Shown here piece after piece: positions 864-61,047 of a stretch of DNA of 64,000 nucleotides (position 1 is the stretch's first letter; each line of letters starts with the position of its first letter). Location: contig NC_043011.1 of NCBI RefSeq assembly GCF_006345805.1, forward strand, positions 21,774,464 to 21,838,463, given 5' to 3'. Under the pieces are notes generated by a model. It saw only the letters and a list, made by a program, of their open reading frames with translations. It searched no databases and had not been told where the DNA came from. The position numbers were made by a program, and so were the translations under genes. The DNA comes from Octopus sinensis (lineage: Eukaryota).

Positions 864-1876
864 CTGAAAAAATAAACAAACACAAGTTCTGTAAAATATT
901 TGTTTTCTAAAGATTAGCATTTAGAAAAAAACCTTGTTTCACTGTGCCATTAACATTGTTAATAGGAGAGCAGCATCTGGTTGAATTATTATTATCACGC
1001 TGTTAGTATGGCGACAAAGTGTTTAGCATACCTTATCCCATTACTAATGTTGCGTCCATGCTGAAAAACTTAACACTCAACAATAGAGTCCACAAGAATA
1101 AAGCAGGACCAACAGAGCTGAGTTCAAATCCTCCTATAGAAAGAAATGCTGCAATGGGATAACATTTCCTATACAAGGAAGGAAAAAAACTCTCCAGCAT
1201 GTTCATGACGTGAAACTGTAAAACGACACATCTCTTAGAGGTAGACAACACAAATGTGATGAAAAGCTCTAGTTAACAGAGGAATCAACTAAGAATCTGC
1301 TATGCACAACTCCAGATACATTATCAACAATAGCTGTTGATTGTATGTATTGATTAAACTATAAAAATGGCAAGAAATTAATGAATTCTTAGATTACGAT
1401 GTCAAGAAATGAAACAGATTAGATTAAACATCAGTAGTTCTGTTGATTATAATTACTAAATAGAACAATGAAGTGAAAAGTGGTTTGTTTCATGAAAAAG
1501 ATGCAGCCCTTTTTAATATCAGCCAGTCAATCATCAAAGATTATAGGTTGTAGGAGTAACCTTCAAATCACAGTTTATAGTTTTAGAAAAAGAAAGAACA
1601 TATTAATTAATATAGTTCTAGATAGACTATGTCTGAAAAAAAATTCAGATGCAATAGTTATCTTTAATCATAGAAGTGCCTGATAAATGGCAGGTCTAGG
1701 TTTAAACTAGTACTACATTAGTCTAATGCTTTAACAACTCAAACCTTTGATGTATTAAGCTACTACAAATAGCTTCTTACACGGGAACAATTGAACCCTG
1801 AGTTAATTGCTTTTTCAAGAAAAAAAAAACGAGAAAGTAAAAAAGATGCTGTTAGAAAAGAAAGTAAAATACTTAC

Positions 1877-1926
1877 TTTGGAAGTCTGACTGTATACTCT
1901 TGTGTAGTAGAGCTACCAGCAGTCAC
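1877..1926 (-). CDS. GTF2F1: TFIIF alpha, coding exon 2 (VTAGSSTTQEYTVRLPK)
   Basis: Acceptor tttgtcttttag and donor gtaagt. The peptide QEYTVRLPK resembles the RAP74 N-terminal motif (human TEYVVRVPK). The exon ends in phase 2. Confidence 0.85.
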
Positions 1927-2167
1927 CTAAAAGACAAAAAAACATAAAAATGTAATCATGAAAAAATTAGATTAATAAGAATATATATATATATTTTGTG
2001 AAATAGAAAGATGAATAATCTTGTTGCAGATTAATCAAAAGTTTAACCGATACCTTGGTAGCAAAAATCACAGCAGAAGACAGCACGGTTAGAGGTACAA
2101 CCATATGGTGTTGCAACCGTGCGTTGGTGCGGATAGTTGAATTTTAATATTATTACTAATTCACTAA

Positions 2168-2212
<45 letters not shown>

Positions 2213-2475
2213 ACAAAATAATAAATAAAACATATACACATACATATATGTACGTACCTACATCTATATGTATATATACATGCATATATGGGTACAGGAC
2301 ACCAAAAAGACGTCGAACACATTGAGAAACGAAAACATAAAACCAAAACCAAGGAAACACATTTTTTTAAACAACGAAAAAATAGAGTAAAAGACATACA
2401 ACACAAGAAACATTCCCCTTCTTCAGCTGCCTCTGATTCAATATATATATATATACATACATAATTATATATATA

Positions 2476-2859
2476 CTAGCAGTATCGCCCGGCGTTGCTC
2501 AGGTTTGTAAGGGAAATAACTATAAAGCATTTTTAGAGAGTTATAGCCAAAAAATAGCAGAAAAAATGGAAAAAAAATGATGGTAAATTTTTTTGAGAGT
2601 TAAAAAAGGTGGAGTTGCGTCCCCTAGACGGTCTGTGGTTTGGGTTTCTGATTCTCGACCCCATGTCGAATTTATCGATTTTTTTCAGAACCGGGGGAAC
2701 TTTTCAAAATTTTCGCTGCGTTAGTTTTGAATTATGACATTGGGCTATGTGTGTGTCAAGTTTCATCAGAATCAGTTGAAAGCCGTGGTCAGAGTGAGGG
2801 TACGAGAAAACAGACACACAGAAAACGCACAGACAAACTGCCGTTTATATATAGAGAGA
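2476..2859 (-). mobile_element. Non-autonomous Helitron-like element
   Basis: The minus strand starts A|TC and ends with a GC-rich hairpin-like segment plus CTAG|T. There is no TSD. Its 3' end is shared with 13272-13648. Confidence 0.7.
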
Positions 2860-2899
2860 TATACATACATAAATATATATATACATACATAAATATATA

Positions 2900-2942
<43 letters not shown>

Positions 2943-3011
2943 CATAAATATATATATATATACATAAATATATATATATATACATACATAAATAAATATA
3001 TATATATATAT

Positions 3012-4352
3012 AAGATGCACCAAGTGTAAGCTATGGACACATAAGAGGTGCAGCAATGTCAAAGGAAGGCTAACTAGGAAGATGGTTTTTGTATGTGGCA
3101 GATGCTCGGGAGCATTAACCTCTGAAAATCTGCAGAAAACAACTTCCGTCACTTTCCAGGGGAAAAAACTAGAAGTAGTTGATAGCTTCTGTTATCTTGG
3201 TAACCAAGTCAGTTGTGGGGGTGGGTGCGCTGAAAGTGTAACTGCTAGAATAAGAATAGCCTGGGCAAAGTTTAGAGAGCTCTTACCTCTGCTGGTGACT
3301 AAAGGCCTCTCGCTCAGAGTAAAAGGCAGACTGTATGATGCATGTGTACGAACAGCCATGCTACATGGCAGTGAAACATGGGCCGTGACTGCTGAGGACA
3401 TGCGTAAGCTCGCGAGAAATGAAGCCAGTATGCTCTGATGGATGTGTAATGTCAGTGTGCATGCTCGACAGAGCGTTAGTACCCTGAGAGAAATGTTGGA
3501 CCTAAGGAGCATCAGTTGTGGTGTGCAAGAGAGACGACTGCGCTGGTATAGTCATGTGGCGAGAATGGTTGAAGATAGGTGTGTGAAAAAGTGCCAATCC
3601 CTAGCAGTGGAGGGAACCCGTGGAAGAGGTAGACCCAGGAAAACTTGGGATGAGGTGGTGAAGCACGACCTTTGAACTTTAGGTCTCACTGAGGAAATGA
3701 CCAGTGACCTTTGGAAATATGCTGTGCATGAAAAGACCAGGCAGGACAAGTGAGTCCAGCCCACTTATGCATGCCTTTCCTCCCTTGGACACACAAAGAC
3801 CTGTTGGGGCAAGCGAAGTTGATATCGAACCTCATCCGACGACAGGCACCTATGCCAACCCCACTTTGCTTGCGAAGACCTATTGGGGCAAGTGAAATCG
3901 AAATCGGAATCGAAATTGAACCAATCCTATGACTGGCACCCGGCAGATGCCAGGACCCCTGGACTGGAGAAACGTAAAAAGGCACTATCCGAATCGTGGC
4001 CGATGCCAGCGCCGCCTCGACTGGCTTCCGTGTCCGTGGCACGTAAAAAGCACCATCCGAATTGTGGCCGAAGCCAGTGCCGCCTCGACTGGCTTCCGTG
4101 CAGGTGGCACGTAAAATGCACCAATCCGACCGTGGCCGATGCCAGCCTCGCCTGGCACCAGTGCAGGTGGCACGTAAAAACCACCCACTACACTCACAGA
4201 GTGGTTGGCGTTAGGAAGGGCATCCAGCTGTAGAAACATTGCCAGATAAGACCGGAGCCTGGTGCAGCCTTCTGGCTTCCCAGATCGCCGGTCGAACCGT
4301 CCAACCCATGTTAGCATGGAGAACGGACGTTAAACAATGATGATGATGATGA
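3012..4352 (+). mobile_element. RTE LINE 3' fragment (same family)
   Basis: Highly similar to 41483-42731. Has in-frame stops and a (GAT)n tail, and is inserted in a TA/TACA microsatellite within GTF2F1 intron 1. Confidence 0.93.
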
Positions 4353-9227: not shown

Positions 9228-9406
9228 AAAACACCAAGTAAGTTAGGGGTTGTGGATCCAACCCTCTAAGGGATAATACTTATCCAATATACTGTTGGTA
9301 TACTACCCAAATTATTAATACACAAGTGTTTTTAATTGCAATGCAAAAACTCACTTATTGTATTAAATGGGTGAAGGTAAAGAAATATTTTACCATTGAT
9401 TTATAT

Positions 9407-9527
9407 TACAAATAAGAAAATGGAGAAACACATTAGTTGGTTTATCAGCTTTAGGATATTAGAATGTTGCCTTAATATCCTAAAGCTGATAAACCAACTA
9501 ATGTGTTTCTCCATTTTCTTATTTGTA
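9407..9527. repeat. Perfect 55-bp inverted repeat with an 11-nt loop
   Basis: 9407-9461 is the exact reverse complement of 9473-9527. Confidence 0.95.
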
Positions 9528-10019
9528 TATATATATAGTGTGTTGTGAATTTATGGAAAAGAATCCCATAAAACTCTCAACAAATTTATTAAAAATGGAG
9601 ATGTTAAAATGTAAGAGAATTTTAATTCATGCAGACGATCATTTCAAATGGTGATAAAAACTGATACTTCCTTTTTCCAAGCTGAGATTCGAAACCAAAT
9701 CTAAGGATTCTCACTTGTCTGATCCACCACTCGCCAAGCAGCTGCAAAAGAAATTTCTTTGTCCTGTCAAAAAGTGGTGGATAGATTTTCCTTTTTAGCA
9801 TAAATCTTGACCTCATCCACAAAGAAATTATAGGTTACATTAATATCTCTTGCAGTTGCAGACCCTAGCATGTTCTTTTTTGTAGCAGGAATGATAATGG
9901 GTTCAAAGCCAAAATGGGCAGCAGTACAAGGAGACTATCTCCAAGGAATATTCCCTTTGAAATATTTATAGCATTGGTGAGGATCATTCCACTCTCTGTT
10001 GTAAGTGTGAGGATTATAG

Positions 10020-35552: not shown

Positions 35553-35691
35553 TTTGTGTCATACAAGGGGTGATCACATGTGGGTTGGTAGCTAAAGGAT
35601 TAAGTCAAAAGAAATTATTTTGTATAATGTGAAACATTAATTGTATTCTTATTCATATTTACATTAACCAATTTTCAAACCATTTTTACAG

Positions 35692-36160
35692 AGCAGCACG
35701 ACATGGATTACGACTAAATGGCAAGTTGCAACGCATCAAAGAACAAGAACAACGCTTCTTGGAATCTCTTGAGAGTGCCAAAAATCATAAAAATCAAATC
35801 TCAAATACCAAAATTTCTAGCATTTCTGGAAATCATACAAAGGTTGAGGCTGAGAAGCAGCAAAATAATTTAGATGACGATGGTTATATTGAAGAAGAAA
35901 CATTGATTAAAAAGAGGAAAAAGAAGAAGAAAAAGAACAAAAATGATTTGGTTGAAGTGGGTTTAGAAGAAACAGTTGATTGTAGACAGGATTCAGAAAA
36001 TCAAGTCTTTCAGGAAAACAAATTACTTGTTAGTGAAAATCTAACAGACTCTGATAAAGAAATAGTTTGGTTGCCTAAGCAAGATGATGTTTCAACCAAA
36101 GATGGATTTAAATTAAAATACAAGGTTAAAAAGCACAAAAAGAGAAAACATAATCTATAA
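35692..36160 (+). CDS. GPATCH4: GPATCH4 terminal exon 7 (AARHGLRLNGKLQRIKEQEQRFL...lysine-rich tail, stop TAA)
   Basis: Acceptor tttttacag. Continues the motif AAR.G....KL.R...QEQ.FL and has KKRKKKKKK basic tracts. The spliced CDS totals 906 nt (301 aa). Confidence 0.92.
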
Positions 36161-36189: not shown

Positions 36190-36240
<51 letters not shown>

Positions 36241-36323
36241 CATTACCATTATCATTATTATAATATATATTATATATATATATATATTATCATTACCATT
36301 ATCATTATTATAATATATATATA

Positions 36324-36987
36324 TAAACACATAAATGTAAAACAAGGTGGAAAAAAGAGTACTCAAATACCAGAGGTAGAGTAATATGCTTTATTTAAAA
36401 GCAGCAGAAATTCAACAAAACCTGTTACTCGGAGTTTCACGTTCCCGTTCGTCAAGATGACAATTCTATCAAGACTAGTATAAACGTTACACCTTTAAAA
36501 ATGGACTTGTTTGATTGGTCCTTTCAAATAACGGTCATATTCGAGCGATAAACGAAAATGAGCTTAATATAAAATATTTAAAAAAAATATATAAAATTAT
36601 AAAAGTCGAGGAAAAAACCTTACATCGAATCTTTGGTTAAAATACATATTGTCATTAATAAAGAAAATATACATAGAAATTAAAATTAAAATATTAAAAA
36701 ATTAAAATTGAAATTAAAAATTTAAAAAGTCGAGGTTTTTTCCTCGATTTTTATAATTTTATATATTTTTTTTTAATATTTTATATTGAGCTCATTTTTG
36801 TTTATTGCTCGAATATGAGCGTTATTTGAAAGGACCAATCAAACAAGTCCATTTTTAAAGGTGTAACGTTTATACCAGTCTTGATATAATTGTCATATCG
36901 GTTCTATTTTAACAAAAGTGTCCAACGAACGGGAACGTGAAACTCCGAGTAACAGGTTTTGTTGAATTTCTGCTACTTTTAAATAAA

Positions 36988-36992
<5 letters not shown>
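36324..36992 (-). mobile_element. Short Penelope-like foldback (element A), related to element B
   Basis: Inverted arms at about 36385-36620 and 36733-36992 are homologous to the pLTR of element B. It is flanked by (TA)n and has no ORF. Confidence 0.8.
36914..36960 (+). ncRNA. Degenerate hammerhead motif in element A (a partial mirror copy lies at about 36417-36455 on the minus strand)
   Basis: tgt-CCAACGA-acg ggaa cgt-GAAA-ctc c gag-TA-aca. The core is mutated but the stems are retained. Confidence 0.5.
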
Positions 36993-37025
<33 letters not shown>

Positions 37026-37053
37026 CTTTATTTTAAGCAGCAGAAAATTCAAC

Positions 37054-37099
37054 AAAATCTGTTACTCTGTTTCTCGTTGCCGTTCATCAGACAGTTTTT
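37054..37099 (-). ncRNA. Hammerhead motif, mirror copy with a 4-nt deletion in stem III
   Basis: The reverse complement reads ctgt-CTGATGA-acggcaacga-GAAA-cagag-TA-acag. Confidence 0.55.
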
Positions 37100-38119
37100 G
37101 CTAGAATGGAACTTATATATTAATTCAATCTATACTCTTACAAACGCTACACCTTTAAAAAGAAATGGACTTGTTTGATTGGCCCTTTAGAAAAAAACGG
37201 TCAATCTTCGAGCGATAAACAAAAAGGTCAAAAATATATGTATATATATATAAAAAAACTTATAAAAATTATAAAATCCGAGGAAAAAACGAGGAAAAAC
37301 CTATTGCCGTTAATGAAGAAAGTACAAATTAATGCATAGAAATTAAACCTGTTATAAATACTGCAATACATATTTATATTAAAATCTACATATATATATC
37401 AACATACACAAAAGGATGCGCGTAAACGCCATACATACATATACAGACGTATGAATATGAATCTAAATTATACACATAAAAGCATGTGTACATATATTCA
37501 CGCAAACCGTCTCGCACGCAAGCTAAAATTCATCTATGTAGCAATTCTCATATACTGAGCAAGGAGGGGGAACGAAAGAAAGGGAAAGAGAGAAAAAGGA
37601 ACGAAGGAGGGGTGGGGAAAAAACTTGTAGCGATGTTATTGGCATCTATAGAGGCCAGTATACATACACAAGTTTGAATTGATACATATACATACCGTCG
37701 TGTGTATGCGTGCTTAAGCACAAGCATACTTTCACTTACACATACACAGATACGTATGCTTACATATACATATGCTTTGCTATACACAAACTTATATAAA
37801 CATTCTAAATTTGACAACATTGCTTTTTTTTTAAAAAAAACATTGCTTTTAAAAAATGGGTGCATTAATAAAAATATATACGAAAGACATATAAAATAAA
37901 ATATAACATCTTATTTTGGGTCATTTATAAATAATCAAGGTAATATAAATAATCAAGGTAATCCTATGCAATACAATAACATGAAAACAAAGTTTGTAGG
38001 TTTTTCCTAATATATATGTAGAAACAAAAGACTTTGCTATAAATCCGTCGTAGCGCTCAAGAGTCAAAATCAAAATCAAAAATCAAAATACAAAATATAT
38101 ACTCTATCCATATGGTATT

Positions 38120-38950
38120 TTATATCGACATTTTAAATTTAGCCGCGTGCCTACATAAGTTCATTAACTCACTTCTTTGATTCAAAGAATTATTGTCTTT
38201 GAATAATATGTGCATTTTCTCTAATAAGCAAAGCCTGCACTTGAAATTATATTTGTAAGCTCCATGCCTGTATGGTGCCGCCCTGTCCAGAATGCTCCAT
38301 GTCACGTTGAAAGGTGGGGCTTCCTTTTCTTTTAGTTCCCAGACATATTTTGCTAGGCTGGGTTTCTTCCTATTCTCTGGGTATTAAAAGAATTCTTATG
38401 AGAATAAAATCTTGTTTTAAATGAATTTTCTGAAGCCCCTGTGTATGTCTTGTATTCCGATGAGCCTTCCACTTGCACCTTGGCTCTATAAACTACTCCT
38501 TTCACTAGACATTTCCTTCTAACGGACAGGAGCTTTCGTTTTTGCAATTACATTTCTTAATGGGCTCGGCACCATGTCTAATCTCAATTAGCTTCCTATT
38601 ATGTTGGCTAATGTAAGAGGCGAAATTTCTGCAACAAGAATAGCTAACCTTCAGGGTTCTTCTATTAAATATTCTGTAGAATTTATGACCCTGCTTAAAA
38701 CTTAGAGACTAATCTCAAAAATTCTTACCTATATTAGTCTTTACGGCCAAATTGAAAGCCGGGTTGAACCACAAAACTTTCCTGGTCCTAGTTCTTCGTG
38801 CAGCATTATTATTAGCATTAAGCTGGTTGAACTGGATCTTCTCCGAGAATCCACTATTCTTTAATGCGTTATCGTAATAAGGTGCAGCATTATGGAATGC
38901 TGCCTCGTCCGAAGAAATTGAAGATATTCTTCTACGTACATTGCTGACTA
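38120..38950 (-). pseudogene. Frameshifted C-terminal part of the Penelope-like ORF (linker with CxC...CPL..C plus GIY-YIG endonuclease)
   Basis: Joined frames read KVLWFNPAF..KTNIGKNF..IFNRRTLKVSYSC..KKCNCKNESSCPLEG-CLVKGVVYRAKV..KTYTGASENSFKTRFYSHKNSF..KYVWELK..CRLCLLEK..LNQRSELMNLCRH. VVY-YTG is the GIY-YIG signature, followed by the conserved R, H, E and N. Confidence 0.88.
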
Positions 38951-39736
38951 AATGTCTTTCGTATATATTTTTATTAATGCACCCATTTTTTAAAAGCAAT
39001 GTTTTTTTTAAAAAAAAGCAATGTTGTCAAATTTAGAATGTTATATAAGTTGTGTATAGCAAAGCATATGTATTTGTAAGCATGCGTATCTGTGTATGTG
39101 TAAGTGAAAGTATGCTTGTGCTTAAGCACGCATACACACGACGGTATGTATATGTATCAATTCAAACTTGTGTATGTATACTGCCTCTATAGATGCCAAA
39201 ATAACATCGCTACAAGTTTTTTCCCCACCCCTCCTTCGTTCCTTTTTTCTCTCTTTCCTTCTTTCGTTCCCCTCCTTGCTCAGTATATGAAAATTGCTAC
39301 ATAGATGAATTTTAGCTTGCGTGCGAGACGGTTTGCGTGAATATATATGTACAATGCTTTTATGTGTATAATTTAGATTCATATTCATACGTCTGTACAT
39401 GTATGTATGGCGTTTACGCGCATCCTTTTGTGTATGTTGATATATATATGTAGATTTTAATATAAATATGTATTGCAGTATTTATAACAGGTTTAATTTC
39501 TATGCATTAATTTGTACTGTCTTCATAACGGCAATAGGTTTTTCCTGGTTTTTTCCTCGGATTTTATAATTTTTATAAGTTTTTTTATATATATAACATA
39601 TATTTTTGACCTTTTTGTTTATCGCTCGAAGATTGACCGTTTTTTTCTAAAGGGCCAATCAAATAAGTCCATTTCTTTTTAAAGGTGTAGCGTTTGTAAG
39701 AGTATAGATTGAATTATATATAAGTTCCATTCTAGC

Positions 39737-39786
39737 AAAAACTGTCTGATGAACGGCAACGAGAAACTCAGAGAGTAACAGATTTT
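39737..39786 (+). ncRNA. Minimal type I hammerhead ribozyme motif
   Basis: aaaaactgt-CTGATGA-a cg gcaa cg a-GAAA-ctc aga gag-TA-acag a tttt. The core is intact, stem I is ctgt/acag, stem II is short and GNRA-capped, stem III is ctc/gag and the cleavage triplet is GUA. Confidence 0.75.
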
Positions 39787-39896
39787 GTTGAATTTTCTGC
39801 TGCTTAAAATAAAGCATATTACTCTACCACTGGTATTTGAGTACTCTTTTTTTCCACCTTGTTTCACATTTTGTGTTTACTCCGGTATATATATAT

Positions 39897-39931
<35 letters not shown>

Positions 39932-42731
39932 GGACTAGGAGGACAACCAGAAGACGACAAATATGGAGAAGAAGGATCTGGAAGCTTAAAGATCCTGCAA
40001 ATGGACAGAGATTTAGGGACATATTACTTGAAGCCTCTGACGAAGTAGAAGGGGATAGAGCATCACAGGGGGTAGAAGACAGCTGGACGTTTCTAAGGGA
40101 CAACCTGCTGAGAGCCACTGACCAGATCTGTGGCTGGTGCAAAGTCTCCTCTCGACCTAGAATAACGGTGGTGGTGGAACAATATTGTAGACAGGGCTAT
40201 TAGAGAAAAGAGACAGGCTTGGAAGGTCTGGAAAAATGGGGGTAGCAGGGGATTGTATCAGACTGCCAAAAGAGAAGCTAGGAGACAGGTTTATTTAGCC
40301 AGAGGGGAAGCAGATAAGAAAAAATTTGCCAATGTTCTGCGCCGTGAGGACCAAAGACTGGAGGTGTTTCGTGTTGCAAGACAGTGTGTGAGAGAGAATC
40401 GTGATGTGGTAGGAGAGAAGTGTGTTCGCATGGAAGATGGTTCACTTGCGCTAAATGAGGATGCAAAGAGAGAGGTTTGGAGATGCCACTATGAAAGGTT
40501 GCTGAATGAAGAAAATGAATGGGATAAAGAGAGTCTGCCGAATGTTGACCCAACAGAGGGACCAGCTATCCGAGTTGATAGTTCCGTGGTAGCTAAGGCA
40601 ATTAGAAGCATGAAGACAGGGAAAGCCCCAGGCCCATCAGGAATCACTGCAGAGATGCTCAAAATGTCTGGTAGTGTCGGCTATAGCCTAGTCACCCGTA
40701 TAGTTAATCAGGTGATACACAAAGGGGTCATACCCAATGACGGTGTGTAGCAGTATAATAGTCAACTGCTACAAAGGTAAAGGTGTTGCCCTAGATACAA
40801 ATAACTACAGAGGTATCAAGCTGTTGGACCAGGTGTGATGAAGGTTACGGAGAGGGTCATAGCCCAACTATTAGAGAGAGAGTTAGTTTAGATGAGATGC
40901 AGTTTGGGTTTGTGCCAGGGAAAAGTACTACTGATGCTATATTCCTGGTAAGGCAGCTGCAGGAGAAATACCTAGCCAAAGATAAGCCCCTGTACCTGGC
41001 TTTTGTTGACATGGAGAAAGCCTTCGACAGGGTCCCCCGATCCCTTATCTGGTGGGCAATGAGGAAACTAGGGATAGATGAATGGTTAGTGAGAGCTGTG
41101 CGGGCCATGTACAGGGACGCCGCTAGTAGGGTGAGGGTTGGAAATGTGTACAGTGAAGAATTCCGGGTAGAGGTAGGAGTCCACCAAGGCTCAGTACTCT
41201 GCCCCCTCCTATTTATCATAGTCCTCCAGGCAATAACGGAGGAATTCAAGACAGGATGCCCTTGGGAGCTCCTCTATGCTGATGACCTTGCTCTAATTGC
41301 TGAGTCGCTATCAGAACTGGAGGAGAAGTTTCAGGTGTGGAAACAAGGATTAGAATCGAAGGGCCTCAGAGTCAATCTAGCTAAAACCAAAGTCGTAATC
41401 AGTAGGAAGGTAGACAAATCACAAACACCTTCAGGTAGATGGCCCTGCTCGATCTGTAGAAAAGGTGTAGGTAGAAACTCTATAAGATGCACCAAGTGTA
41501 AGCTATGGACACATAAGAGATGCAGCAATGTCAAAGGAAGGCTAACTAGGAAGATGGTTTTTGTATGTGGCAGATGCTCAGGAACAATAAACACTGAAAA
41601 TGCTCTGAGACCAACTTCCGTCACTTTCCAGGGAGAAAAACTAGAAATAGTTGATAGTTTCCGTTACCTAGGTGACCAAGTCAGCAGCGGGGGGGCGGGT
41701 GTGCTGAAAGTGTAACTGCTAGAGTAAGAATAGCTTGGGCAAAGTTCAGAGAGCTCTTACCTCTGCTGGTGACAAAAGGCCTCTCGCACAGAGTGAAAGG
41801 CAGACTGTATGATGCGTGTGTACGAACAGCCATGCTACATGGCAGTGTGAAACATGGGCCGTGACTGCTGAGGATATGCGTAAGCTCGCTAGAAATGAAG
41901 CCAGTATGCTCCGATGGATGTGTAATGCCGGTACTCACACTCGGCAGAGTGTAAGTACCTTGAGAGAAAAGCTGGACCTAAGAAGCATCAGTTGTGGTGT
42001 GCAAGAGAGACGTTTGCGCTGGTATGGTCATGTGGCGAGAATGGATGAAGATAGTTGTGTGAAAAAGTGCCACACCCTAGTGGTTGAGGGAACCTGTGGA
42101 AGAGGCAGACCCAGGAAAACCTGGGACGAGGTGGTGAAGCACGACCTTTGAACTTTAGGTCTCACTGAGGAAATGACTAGAGACCGAGACCTCTGGAAGT
42201 GTGCTGTGCGCGAGAAGACCCGGCAGGACAAGTAAGTCCATAACCCGTGGCCTTCTACATGGGATGGAGCCAGCCTACGTATGCATACCTTCCCTTCTTG
42301 GGACACAAAACTCTACTTGTGAAGACGTGATGAGGCAAGTGAGGATCAGAATCGAAATCGATCAATGGAAATTGCGGATGTGCTACCAGTGCCGGTGGCA
42401 TGTAAGAGAACTTTCCGTTTCGCGACCGTTGCCAGCACCGCCCCGTTTCGTGTCCATTGCCAGCCTCGCCTGGCCCTCGTGCCGGTGGCACAAGCACCAT
42501 CCGTTCGTGGCCGTTTGCCAGCTCTGTCTGGCACCAGTGCGGGTGGCACGTAAAAAGCACCCACTACACTCACGGAGTGGTTGGCGTTAGGAAGGGCATC
42601 CAGCCGTAGAAACACTGCCAGATTTGACTGGGCCTGATGAAGCCTTCTGGCTTCACAGACCCCAGTAGAACCGTCCAACCCATGCTAGCATGGAAAACGG
42701 ACGCTAAACGATGATGATGATGATGATGATG
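39932..42731 (+). mobile_element. RTE-clade LINE, 5'-truncated, RT with embedded PHD finger, several frameshifts
   Basis: Motifs KAPGPSGIT, QFGFVPGKSTTDAIF, AFVDMEKAFDRV, GVHQGSVL, YADD, FRYLG and RLRWYGHVARM..GRGRPRKTW. The 3' UTR has repeats and a (GAT)n tail. Confidence 0.95.
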
Positions 42732-45427: not shown

Positions 45428-46994
45428 GTGTGTGTATTTGTATGTATATATGTTGTACATATATATGTGTTTATTTGTCTCTGCATGTGTTTATATGATT
45501 TAGAGCACCAGTGAGGTTTGTTTAAGCCTGCAGTTCAGCAGTTTTAACATAAAGGCCCATAGACTAAAGTACCTCATCTGAAAACTAGTAATGGTTGACA
45601 TAGGAGGCATTAGTCATAGAACATTATCTAAAGAAGTCTCAGACAAACTAAGCAGCTTGGATAAAAGAAAAAAGTGGTCATTAAAATGAAGATATATTTG
45701 ATTACTGGTAAATTTTCCATGGGGAAAGTTTGCTGCTATCAATTCACTGTGAGGAAAGTTTACCAAGGAAATATATCCATAGTATCTCACCATTAATAGT
45801 TAAAAACTATCTTATTGACAAAAAATGGTAAATAGAGGATGATGAATTTTCCTGCAGTGAATTGATGATGGTGAACTTACTGGACATGAATAGTCAATGA
45901 CTGGCATCCGTGCTAGTGGAGCGCTAAGAGCACCATCCAAGCATGATTGTTGCCAGAGCAGCTAACTGGCTTCCACGACGGTGGCACGTTTAAAAGCACC
46001 ATTCGATCATGATTGTTACCAGCGTCACTTTACTGGCACTTGAAAAAAACATTCAAGCTAGGTCGTTACCAGTGCCGCTGGACTGGCACCAGTGCAGGTG
46101 GCACATAAAAAACACCATTTGAGCGTAGCCGTTGCCAGTCAGGTGGTACTGGCAACAGCCATGCTCAGATGGTGCTTTTTATGTGCCACCTGCACAGGAG
46201 CCAGTCCAGCAGCACTGGCAACGACCTCGCTCGAATGTTTTTTCACATGCCACCAGCACAAGTGCCAGTAAGGTGACGCAGGTAATGATCACACTCAAAG
46301 TGGTCTGCTAAATGACTTCTGACCTAAGAAATGAGAATATAATGATTTACCACCTCTGAAAGGATTTACAATATAAGTATGATGAAAAGCAGTCAAATAA
46401 TGGTCGTCTTGTTTTTGGAAGGATGTCTAAGACTAATAATCAACTGTCTCTGTTTCTCTTTAAGACTGTGAGACGAGATGAGAGTAGCTTTGGTTGCTGT
46501 TTGTAGCAAATTGAATGATCACATAGATGATTCCTTGTTGGTGCATTTTTTCGAATGCTGCTGTTATTGTTAGTTAACTCTAGATCAGTTCTGACTGAGT
46601 AGTTCTATAATCAAAAAGCTTTCTAGCTGTGTTCGTCCTGTCATCATTATCATCGTCATTTAAACGCCTGCTTTTCCATGCTGGTATGGATCAAGAAGAA
46701 TTTGTTGAAGCAGATGTTCTACTGTCAGATGCTCTTCCTGTTACTAACCCTCATATCGACATCACATGAGCATTAGTGACACTTGTCTTTGTCACGCATG
46801 TGCAGTATGACTCATACTCAAGTGGTTTGACATGTAAAGACTACTTAAGAATAAAAGGCGTGATTTTGAAGAGTAAACAAGTATTGACACCAAGAAGTGT
46901 TTTTGGCTATATGATACTGCCTGAAGAAATTTCATCCAAGTCATGCCAGCATAGAAGGAGCAGACATAATGATGATGATGAAGAAGAGAAAGAA

Positions 46995-60000: not shown

Positions 60001-60023
<23 letters not shown>

Positions 60024-60462
60024 TATTTACATAGACATACACAACATACCAACATACACTCTCTTTCTCACACAACACACACACACACATTATGTCAGTA
60101 AGGGTTTGTGGATGTTGATATTCTGTATTTGATGCTGCTTGAGTGAAAAGAGGATGTTGTCATTCCCTGTTGACATTATGAATGGCTGTTCTTTGAATCC
60201 AAAGACCTCTGGAATAAAAAGAATGTCCCTTACTAAAAAAACAGGTGCGGGTTGGCAACATGAAGAGCATCAAGCCATAAAATCTTGCCTTGCATAACTC
60301 CACATCTAACCCATGCTAGCATGGAAAAAACATGTTAAATGAACATATGAAGACATACATATACACACACACGTGCACATATAGGCATACACACACATAC
60401 ATACATACAGACTCACATTCGCATACATACATTCATACATATATACAGACATACATACACAC

Positions 60463-60518
<56 letters not shown>

Positions 60519-60967
60519 CACACACACACACATATTTACATAGACATACACAACATACCAACATACACTCTCTTTCTCACACACACACACACACACATTA
60601 TGTCAGTAAGGGTTTGTGGATGTTGATATTCTGTATTTGATGCTGCTTGAGTGAAAAGAGGATGTTGTCATTCCCTGTTGACATTATGAATGGCTGTTCT
60701 TTGAATCCAAAGACCTCTGGAATAAAAAGAATGTCCCTTACTAAAAAAACAGGTGCGGGTTGGCAACATGAAGAGCATCAAGCCATAAAATCTTGCCTTG
60801 CATAACTCCACATCTAACCCATGCTAGCATGGAAAAAACATGTTAAATGAACATATGAAGACATACATATACACACACACGTGCACATATAGGCATACAC
60901 ACACATACATACATACAGACTCACATTCGCATACATACATTCATACATATATACAGACATACATACA

Positions 60968-61010
<43 letters not shown>

Positions 61011-61047
61011 CACACACACACACCACACACACACAACACACACACAC
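60001..61047. repeat. ~508-bp tandem duplication bounded by (CA)n
   Basis: tatgtcagtaagggtttgtgg occurs at 60091 and 60599. The non-microsatellite parts appear identical. Confidence 0.93.

What the first reader, a model, noticed from the sequence alone, without database searches (positions are those of the whole stretch)
36324..39885. Double-foldback Penelope-like retroelement complex carrying four hammerhead ribozyme motifs
Seen in the sequence: two adjacent related elements separated by (TA)n, each an inverted repeat. A has ~240-bp arms and B has ~870-bp near-identical arms around a GIY-YIG remnant. The outermost ends (36324-36420 and about 39790-39879) are also inverted copies, and each arm has a hammerhead-like motif. 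Established: Penelope-like elements form inverted pseudo-LTRs at 5' truncations, favour microsatellites and carry minimal hammerheads. Inference: the C-terminal endonuclease with a CxC-x5-CPL-x2-3-C linker suggests a little-studied lineage, possibly the Hydra clade, and high arm identity suggests recent activity.
Basis: partly seen in the sequence, partly recalled or inferred. Interest (0 to 1): 0.75.

Follow-up and report, generated by a model that had tools for sequence, protein, structure and literature searches.

The report
Two stacked Hydra-Penelope foldback insertions
This stretch of octopus DNA holds two cut-short, mirror-image insertions of related Penelope-like jumping genes that likely landed one after the other in the same TA repeat, an ordinary layout, although their family's copies follow a strict end rule that likely shows how these elements are copied into DNA.

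Summary
The repeats are real, but they are not one special complex. They are two 5'-truncated head-to-head insertions of related Hydra-clade Penelope-like subfamilies: older A (arms 4.6% apart) and younger B (1.0%). About 30 end-to-end junctions of the same kind exist elsewhere, in random orientation. B's family has natural intact 711-residue ORFs (TERT-like RT, GIY-YIG fold, Hydra motifs). Only one of the four hammerheads (B2) keeps its core and stems. The matching outer ends are the conserved 70-nt tail.

The family is more informative than this copy. In 84 of 84 classifiable inverted insertions one arm has the tail and the other does not (two exceptions in other samples). 5' ends pile up at a hard edge just upstream of the hammerhead (109 vs 9). 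Arm lengths are concordant, and paired arms share private variants. This fits both cut DNA strands priming at two fixed sites on one RNA (inferred).

Earlier scan notes report the same reading on other DNA; five literature searches did not find it in print. Unexplained: an otherwise invariant linker cysteine is Phe in 215 of 290 copies. Raw reads did not confirm this locus's junction.

The parts
36192..36323 (.). Host (TTA)n/(TA)n microsatellite, left target flank
36324..36708 (-). A1: 5'-truncated 3' end of the older subfamily A; tailed (long) end, tail 36324-36388
   Evidence: 83-86% identity to A-family copies over this span; tail 97% to the family tail
36360..36383 (-). Bulged hairpin in the tail of A1, 5 nt behind the short-end site
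   Evidence: coordinates; fold of the family form
36413..36456 (-). A1 hammerhead remnant; 24-nt deletion removes the 5' strand of stem I and the start of the core
36709..36733 (.). A1/A2 junction filler containing a short snap-back copy of A2's first bases (inferred repair product)
   Evidence: sequence
36734..36988 (+). A2: 5'-truncated 3' end of subfamily A; untailed (short) end
   Evidence: 88-95% identity to other A copies; end type
36911..36964 (+). A2 hammerhead motif, core CCAACGA (family CCGACGA), stem I damaged
36989..37025 (.). (TA)17 between the two insertions; likely the target of B
37026..38951 (-). B1: 5'-truncated copy of the young subfamily B (unit positions 1420-3353), untailed end
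   Evidence: 97.8% to natural copy L033
37050..37102 (-). B1 hammerhead motif lacking 2 nt of stem III
38120..38951 (-). ORF remnant: RT thumb region, CxCx5Cx5C linker and GIY-YIG nuclease; frame broken in several places
   Evidence: fold of an intact family copy
38949..39885 (+). B2: 5'-truncated copy of subfamily B (unit positions 2486-3423), tailed end, tail 39815-39885
   Evidence: 95.9% to L033
39734..39790 (+). B2 type I hammerhead motif, core and stems kept, 2-nt insertion in loop III; predicted cut after GTA
   Evidence: same layout as Hydra-2_aMil in File S2 of PMC8557442
39820..39843 (+). Bulged hairpin in the tail of B2, 5 nt behind the short-end site
39886..39931 (.). Host (TA)n, right target flank

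Best explanation
The feature is two truncated, head-to-head insertions of related Hydra-clade Penelope-like retrotransposon subfamilies, likely made one after the other in the same TA repeat, each likely copied from a single RNA by two primers that start at two fixed sites 70 bases apart. Shown: the unit is about 3.35 kb, with an RT plus GIY-YIG ORF and a 1.1-kb 3' region ending in a hammerhead. Copies end at one of two points; the 70-nt tail between them is the start of the next unit. Inverted insertions pair one end of each type. Inferred mechanism: the nuclease cuts both strands of (TA)n; each 3'-OH primes reverse transcription at one of the two start sites, each 5-7 nt before a bulged hairpin; both cDNAs run towards the RNA 5' end and are joined head to head by short microhomology. 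Priming at the site pair near the RNA's 5' end gives the common ~230-bp mini-foldbacks that stop at the likely transcription start. Priming at the downstream pair of a read-through RNA gives long arms such as A and B here. B later used the (TA)n beside A. This copy cannot move by itself (no RT core, broken frame).
For: Identity: intact ORFs in natural copies; Hydra motifs conserved across 117 homologues; full model matches TERT best (Foldseek E 1.5e-9); C-terminal domain matches I-TevI (Z 9.5, rmsd 2.3 over 89 residues). Tail = sequence after the pLTR in tandem junctions (54 exact read-through junctions). Two events: A and B 77% identical; arm divergence 11/241 vs 9/860, p=0.001; short|short, tail|short and tail|tail junctions number 6, 17 and 7, fitting 1:2:1 (p=0.74); L084 is a miniature of the same layout. 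End rule: 84 of 84 classifiable inverted partners among 140 anchored loci are of the opposite end type, and 6 more show stubs of the opposite type. One template: arm lengths concordant (both long 10, mixed 2, both mini 69 of 81; 19 mixed expected); in 30 of 30 comparisons paired arms are closer than the median distance to other copies; 16 of 20 pairs share a private variant. 5' edge: 109 ends at unit 3270-3289 vs 9 at 3250-3269; 15 vs 0 among insertions without a BLAST-detectable inverted partner. Joining: 57 of 87 junctions overlap by 1-16 nt; 108 loci share one CTAG-palindrome junction. Agrees with in vitro work on Poseidon_Ac: two start sites bound the tail, both strands are cut and extended, and the hammerhead is dispensable (PMC11167929).
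Against: Exceptions to the end rule: L045 has two tails (1 of 19 readable inverted insertions among the ORF-selected loci); L247 shows short+short beside tail+tail (an inversion of the middle would explain it, not shown). 53 of 140 anchored loci have no BLAST-detectable inverted partner, so inversion is not obligatory. The window's B arms share no private variant and differ at one site that segregates in the family. Two insertions carry different linker codons in their two arms. Arm likeness could also come from later gene conversion. The transcription start is inferred from insertion ends and an initiator-like CCATTCT (motif recalled), not from RNA. All anchored loci come from contig C1 and were chosen by exact end motifs, which favours young copies.
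Confidence: 0.75

Rival explanations
1. Same two insertions, but each inverted arm was made by self-priming or fold-back on an antisense RNA or cDNA followed by a template jump (the model of Arkhipova et al. 2013), or the two arms came from two RNAs held by an asymmetric dimer.
For: Palindromic junctions are common (108 exact CTAG junctions), and the A junction has a snap-back filler. PMC3846280 Discussion proposes antisense self-priming. Two insertions have arms that differ at the linker codon.
Against: A fold-back copy should end where its template ends, so it does not by itself give one tailed and one untailed end in 84 of 84. Two free RNAs predict about 19 long+mini pairs, and 2 were seen. 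The outer ends of inverted pairs abut (TA)n at the two fixed sites in nearly all cases.
Confidence: 0.15
2. The whole 3.56-kb stretch is one compound element or one event whose outer tails act as terminal inverted repeats.
For: The outermost ends are inverted copies, and all four arms are homologous.
Against: The tail is 93-97% identical between subfamilies while the adjacent pLTR is 70-75% (4 A copies), so matching tails need no joint origin. A and B differ in age. The tails-outside orientation is not enriched (6 of 30). No second copy of the A+B compound appeared among the loci fetched; no dedicated search for one was run.
Confidence: 0.04
3. The long B arms are an assembly palindrome artefact.
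For: Arms are 99% identical apart from indels, and many differences lie in homopolymer runs, as long-read errors would.
Against: The arms differ by 9 substitutions and by the tail. The same layout, with 61 distinct junction types among 81 pairs, occurs across the genome. Both outer ends fall on the family's two fixed sites.
Confidence: 0.04
4. The 5' pile-up marks an RT stall or hammerhead cleavage rather than the RNA start.
For: 9 of 224 5' ends lie at unit 3315-3319, around the predicted cut.
Against: The main edge (3270-3274, 64 ends) lies 45 nt upstream of the cut, past the whole ribozyme. Three of the 9 ends near the cut are joined through stem I complementarity (overlap 16 nt), and only 1 of 51 ends without a detected inverted partner lies there.
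Confidence: 0.1

Closest known systems
Hydra clade of EN+ Penelope-like elements (Craig et al. 2021, PMC8557442), incl. Hydra-1_Obim, Hydra-2_Amil and Penelope-13_HM
   Same: RWK, DKT, CxCx5C linker, no CCHH, CxxC and CxH around E and N, C-terminal GIY-YIG, (TA)n target. [quoted passage not shown] Penelope-13_HM carries an inverted 5'-truncated copy.
   Different: A different family from Hydra-1_Obim (about 22 of the first 44 residues identical, compared by eye; different hammerhead). Unit 3.35 kb, against generally under 3 kb. Most B copies have Phe at the second linker Cys. The A family's usual hammerhead core is CCGACGA.
Poseidon_Ac (PAc) in vitro mechanism (Frangieh et al. 2024, PMC11167929)
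   Same: Two RT start sites bound the tail; AT-rich target; both strands cut and extended; uncleaved hammerhead RNA used as template.
   Different: Different clade; the tail here is 70 nt and lies in the 5' UTR. The parts read (1-2 of 4) do not report pairing of the two sites within one insertion or run-off to an RNA start.
Inverted pLTR with one-sided tail in Adineta vaga Penelope (Arkhipova et al. 2013, PMC3846280)
   Same: Head-to-head inverted pLTR, tail at one end, palindromes at the junction.
   Different: There the tail is called optional and antisense self-priming is proposed. Here the pairing is strict in a large sample and fits two primers on a sense RNA.
Animal non-LTR retrozymes (bioRxiv 10.64898/2026.07.22.740005, part 1 of 5 read)
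   Same: Type I hammerhead related to PLE pLTRs.
   Different: Retrozymes are non-coding tandem arrays; these arms are truncated ends of a coding element.

Membership tests
Penelope-like elements, EN+ | Single ORF with telomerase-related RT | tested here: met
   711-aa ORF in natural copies; model pLDDT 93.8, best PDB match TERT 3du5, E 1.5e-9. Pfam gave no RT hit. The window copy itself lacks the RT core.
Penelope-like elements, EN+ | GIY-YIG endonuclease | tested here: met
   I-TevI Z 9.5, rmsd 2.3, 89 aligned; the next two rows are also GIY-YIG. Foldseek alone was weak (E 0.62).
Penelope-like elements, EN+ | pLTR/partial tandem, inverted 5'-truncated copy, one-sided tail | tested here: met
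Penelope-like elements, EN+ | Hammerhead motif in the pLTR | tested here: met
   87 of 95 motifs in short-anchored loci share one type I form, laid out like File S2 rows. Rfam is negative; cleavage untested.
Hydra clade | RWK motif | tested here: met
   RLRWKAF; W in 116 of 117 homologues
Hydra clade | DKG changed to DKT | tested here: met
   SDKTRN in most copies (L033 has SEKTRN); D115, K117, T110 of 117
Hydra clade | CxCx5C linker | tested here: met
   Window copy CNCKNESSC; Cys in 117 of 117 homologues; but Phe in 215 vs Cys in 75 family copies
Hydra clade | No CCHH; CxxC and CxH either side of conserved E and N | tested here: met
   No Cys between the VY and YTG boxes; CxxC..EK and N..CxH invariant in 117 homologues
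Hydra clade | C-terminal EN, (TA)n target | tested here: met
Hydra clade | Generally under 3 kb (typical, not diagnostic) | tested here: not met
   Unit 3353 nt, owing to a 1.1-kb 3' region
Hydra clade | No IFD; RT phylogeny grouping with Hydra references | not tested
   Reference sequences were seen only as supplement text and were not available as inputs; compared by eye only
Naiad/Chlamys | N-terminal EN | tested here: not met
   EN is C-terminal
Neptune/Nematis/Penelope-Poseidon | CCHH motif in EN | tested here: not met

The most novel reading that the evidence does not exclude
Penelope-like elements integrate by obligate twin priming. One RNP cuts both strands of (TA)n and starts two cDNAs on the same RNA, at two hairpin-marked sites 70 nt apart, so every two-armed insertion has exactly one tail and most run off at the RNA's 5' end as ~230-bp hammerhead foldbacks. 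This would replace antisense self-priming as the origin of PLE inverted repeats. In addition, a lineage lacking an otherwise invariant linker cysteine may still proliferate.
Probability: 0.6. Interest if true: 0.62.

Novelty: new member of a known kind. Interest (0 to 1): 0.36.

Why it matters
The locus itself is a dead, ordinary pair of insertions. The family matters because the steps after priming in PLE retrotransposition are stated to be unvalidated (PMC11167929), and the published account of the inverted repeats is tentative (PMC3846280). A strict one-tail rule, concordant arm lengths and a sharp 5' edge in a family with thousands of ends turn that question into direct tests: where the RNA starts, and whether both arms come from one molecule. 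Practically, thousands of ~230-bp foldbacks of this kind could be mislabelled as MITEs or ribozyme genes.

Tried and rejected
Rfam scans of the window and of an intact pLTR: no hammerhead family. Pfam on the remnant frames and on an intact ORF: no RT or GIY-YIG hit. PDB sequence search: nothing meaningful. Foldseek on the EN model was weak, so VIA-align was used.

Laying four runs' contigs on 37900-39200: none of the 32 pieces listed (2874 not shown) bridges the B1/B2 junction. This is inconclusive, so the junction is not confirmed by independent reads, and the A|B junction was not examined with reads.

Cap-derived extra G at the 5' edge (lead from earlier notes): the two informative cases lack it and the others are ambiguous; not supported here. 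A footprint of hammerhead cleavage: confounded by stem I complementarity; rejected as unshown.

Counting all 17 tail|short junctions as separate events: 6 are tandem duplicates. One short|short match is chance and one tail|tail match is a mirror duplicate. The cleaned counts 5:11:6 still fit 1:2:1.

The tree of the linker codon was poorly resolved (5 of 47 branches well supported) and gives no order of events. Minimum-energy folds do not give the active hammerhead shape for any motif, so the motif calls rest on pattern, not on folding energy. A search of earlier findings by sequence returned nothing.

Full report
OBSERVATION. Self-comparison shows two adjacent inverted repeats. B: 37023-37893 against 38949-39817, with 9 mismatches and 14 gap openings in 880 columns. 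A: 36384-36620 against 36733-36993, with 11 mismatches and a 24-nt deletion. (TA)17 separates them, and microsatellites flank both sides. The outermost ends are inverted copies of each other. Minus-strand frames between the B arms give a broken C-terminal protein. The window is G000:C15:21774464-21838463 in a 2.72-Gb genome. An exon ending at 36160 is 99% identical to a protein labelled G patch domain-containing protein 4-like of Octopus sinensis, so the host is an octopus.

WHAT IT IS. A 103-aa piece of the remnant gave 6417 candidates, of which 150 were scored. Twenty loci picked for long frames include natural uninterrupted ORFs of about 710 aa. Natural copy L033 was used as coordinate reference: unit 3353 nt, short end U3353, tail U3354-3423, hammerhead core U3287, predicted cut U3316. 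The protein has 1076 homologues at E<=1e-10 among 7995 scored. An alignment of 117 of them conserves RWK, DKT, YRDD, CxCx5Cx5C, CxxC-E and N-CxH, and there is no Cys between the GIY and YIG boxes. These are the Hydra-clade features listed by Craig et al. 2021 (PMC8557442; passages, sections 11-12, supplement part 2 and supplement search hits read). The predicted fold matches TERT best, and the C-terminal domain matches I-TevI. B1 is U1420-3353 with an untailed end; B2 is U2486-3423 with the tail. A belongs to an older subfamily: 2467 candidates, 40 scored, 88-95% identity among other copies. It is 77% identical to B in the pLTR and 84-89% in the best nuclease alignments. A1 is tailed and A2 is not. 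The tail is the sequence that follows the pLTR at tandem junctions (54 exact junctions). It is 93-97% identical between subfamilies, against 70-75% for the upstream pLTR (4 A copies), which explains the matching outer ends.

HAMMERHEADS. The B family form is CTGT-CTGATGA-ACG GCAA CGA-GAAA-CTC A GAGT-A-ACAG in 87 of 95 motifs; the A family mostly has a CCGACGA core. The layout matches Hydra-2_aMil in File S2 and the small palindromic helix III described by Cervera and de la Pena 2014 (PMC4209133, passages). In the window only B2 keeps core and stems; B1, A1 and A2 are damaged as described above. That such core changes abolish cleavage rests on recalled knowledge, and no activity was tested. Rfam detects none of them.

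ONE COMPLEX OR TWO EVENTS. A's arms differ at 11 of 241 sites and B's at 9 of 860 (p=0.001). Exact patterns found 6 short|short, 17 tail|short and 7 tail|tail junctions across short TA tracts (lower bounds; the window's own junction has an extra base and is not counted). Removing one chance match, six tandem duplicates and one mirror duplicate leaves 5:11:6. Both sets fit random orientation. L084 is a miniature with the same tails-outside layout. One of 140 anchored loci has another end within 300 nt outward. Stacking in one microsatellite is therefore uncommon but recurrent.

INSERTION RULES. The genome has 1175 exact B short ends and 3449 exact tailed ends. I fetched 80 and 60 of these in list order on contig C1, skipping hits already held, adjacent duplicates and partners of fetched loci. 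Result: 48 short+tail, 36 tail+short, 0 of like type, 3 eroded, and 53 without a BLAST-detectable partner; 6 of those 53 show stubs of the opposite type. Among the ORF-selected loci, 18 of 19 readable inverted insertions obey the rule and L045 does not. L247 is a second exception. Of 224 5' ends, 109 fall at U3270-3289 and 9 at U3250-3269; among insertions without a detected partner, 15 and 0. 72 of 87 inverted insertions have both arms starting at U3200 or later, and 108 loci share one CTAG junction. Arm lengths are concordant. Paired arms are closer to each other than the median distance to other copies in 30 of 30 comparisons in 26 loci. 16 of 20 pairs share a private variant, but the window's B pair does not. 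A bulged hairpin with a UUU bulge lies 5 nt behind the short site and 7 nt behind the long site (z -2.9 and -1.7 against mononucleotide shuffles). I tested the hairpins after seeing earlier notes.

MECHANISM. Frangieh et al. 2024 (PMC11167929, parts 1-2 of 4 read) showed in vitro that a PLE cuts and extends both strands, starts at two internal sites that bound the tail, and does not need hammerhead cleavage. The genomic pattern is what would follow if the two DNA ends use the two sites on one RNA and the cDNAs are then joined by microhomology (57 of 87 junctions overlap). Priming near the RNA's 5' end gives mini-foldbacks; priming on read-through RNA gives long arms. These steps are inferred. 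The published alternative is antisense self-priming (PMC3846280, passages and Discussion); it does not predict the end rule. Against my reading: two exceptions, two insertions whose arms differ at the linker codon, possible gene conversion, no RNA data, and no read confirmation of this locus.

NOVELTY. The clade, an octopus member, the inverted layout, the tail and the hammerhead are all published. Families A and B appear to be further members. The strict pairing and 5' edge were not found in five full-text searches, which miss most subscription papers; I read only part of the Craig supplement and none of the others. The scan's earlier notes report the same reading on other DNA, in this and other genomes; these are unchecked notes, not support. 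My note predates reading them.

UNEXPLAINED. The second linker Cys is invariant in 117 homologues but is Phe in 215 family copies against 75 with Cys. Contigs of all four runs laid also carry the Phe allele as the majority (position 38545), so it is not an assembly error. The two states are scattered on a weak tree.

VERDICT. Real, ordinary at the locus level, a new member of a known kind. Interest 0.36, carried by the family-level rule.

Noticed in passing
window 35690-36160 (+): C-terminal coding exon of a GPATCH4-like gene (99% to a named protein). The stop lies about 165 nt before A1, and A2's end supplies an AATAAA on the same strand, so foldback A could lie in the 3' UTR as double-stranded RNA; untested.
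   Followed up: partly
family B ORF aa 564; window 38544-38546: Second linker Cys is Phe in 215 vs Cys in 75 copies, although invariant in 117 homologues; the window copy has Cys. Arms of two insertions (L049; G000:C3 near 61.47 Mb) differ at it.
   Followed up: partly
window 39932-42240 (+): A frameshifted LINE-like element with RVT_1 and a PHD-like finger begins right after the right (TA)n; part of it is repeated at 3009-3758.
   Followed up: no
A-family loci L052-L080: The usual hammerhead core is CCGACGA (C at position 4) in most of 23 motifs, and CCGATGA occurs in intermediate subfamilies: a recurring natural core variant, activity unknown.
   Followed up: partly
L247 (G000:C2:147128104): Short+short foldback beside a tail+tail foldback; fits inversion of the segment between two normal foldbacks.
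   Followed up: partly
L252, L254, L255, L257, L260, L262, L182, L267: Whole mini-foldbacks duplicated in tandem, or as a mirror, within TA tracts; slippage or assembly not distinguished.
   Followed up: no
L044:1-1191 and L039:8452-9690: Other PLE-like families next to B copies: one resembling Hydra-1_Obim by eye, and one with Cys between the nuclease boxes (weak Pfam GIY-YIG hits).
   Followed up: no
window 46010-46291, 9399-9536 and 60001-61040: Two further small self-inverted stretches and a 99%-identical ~530-bp tandem duplication, not matching families A or B.
   Followed up: no
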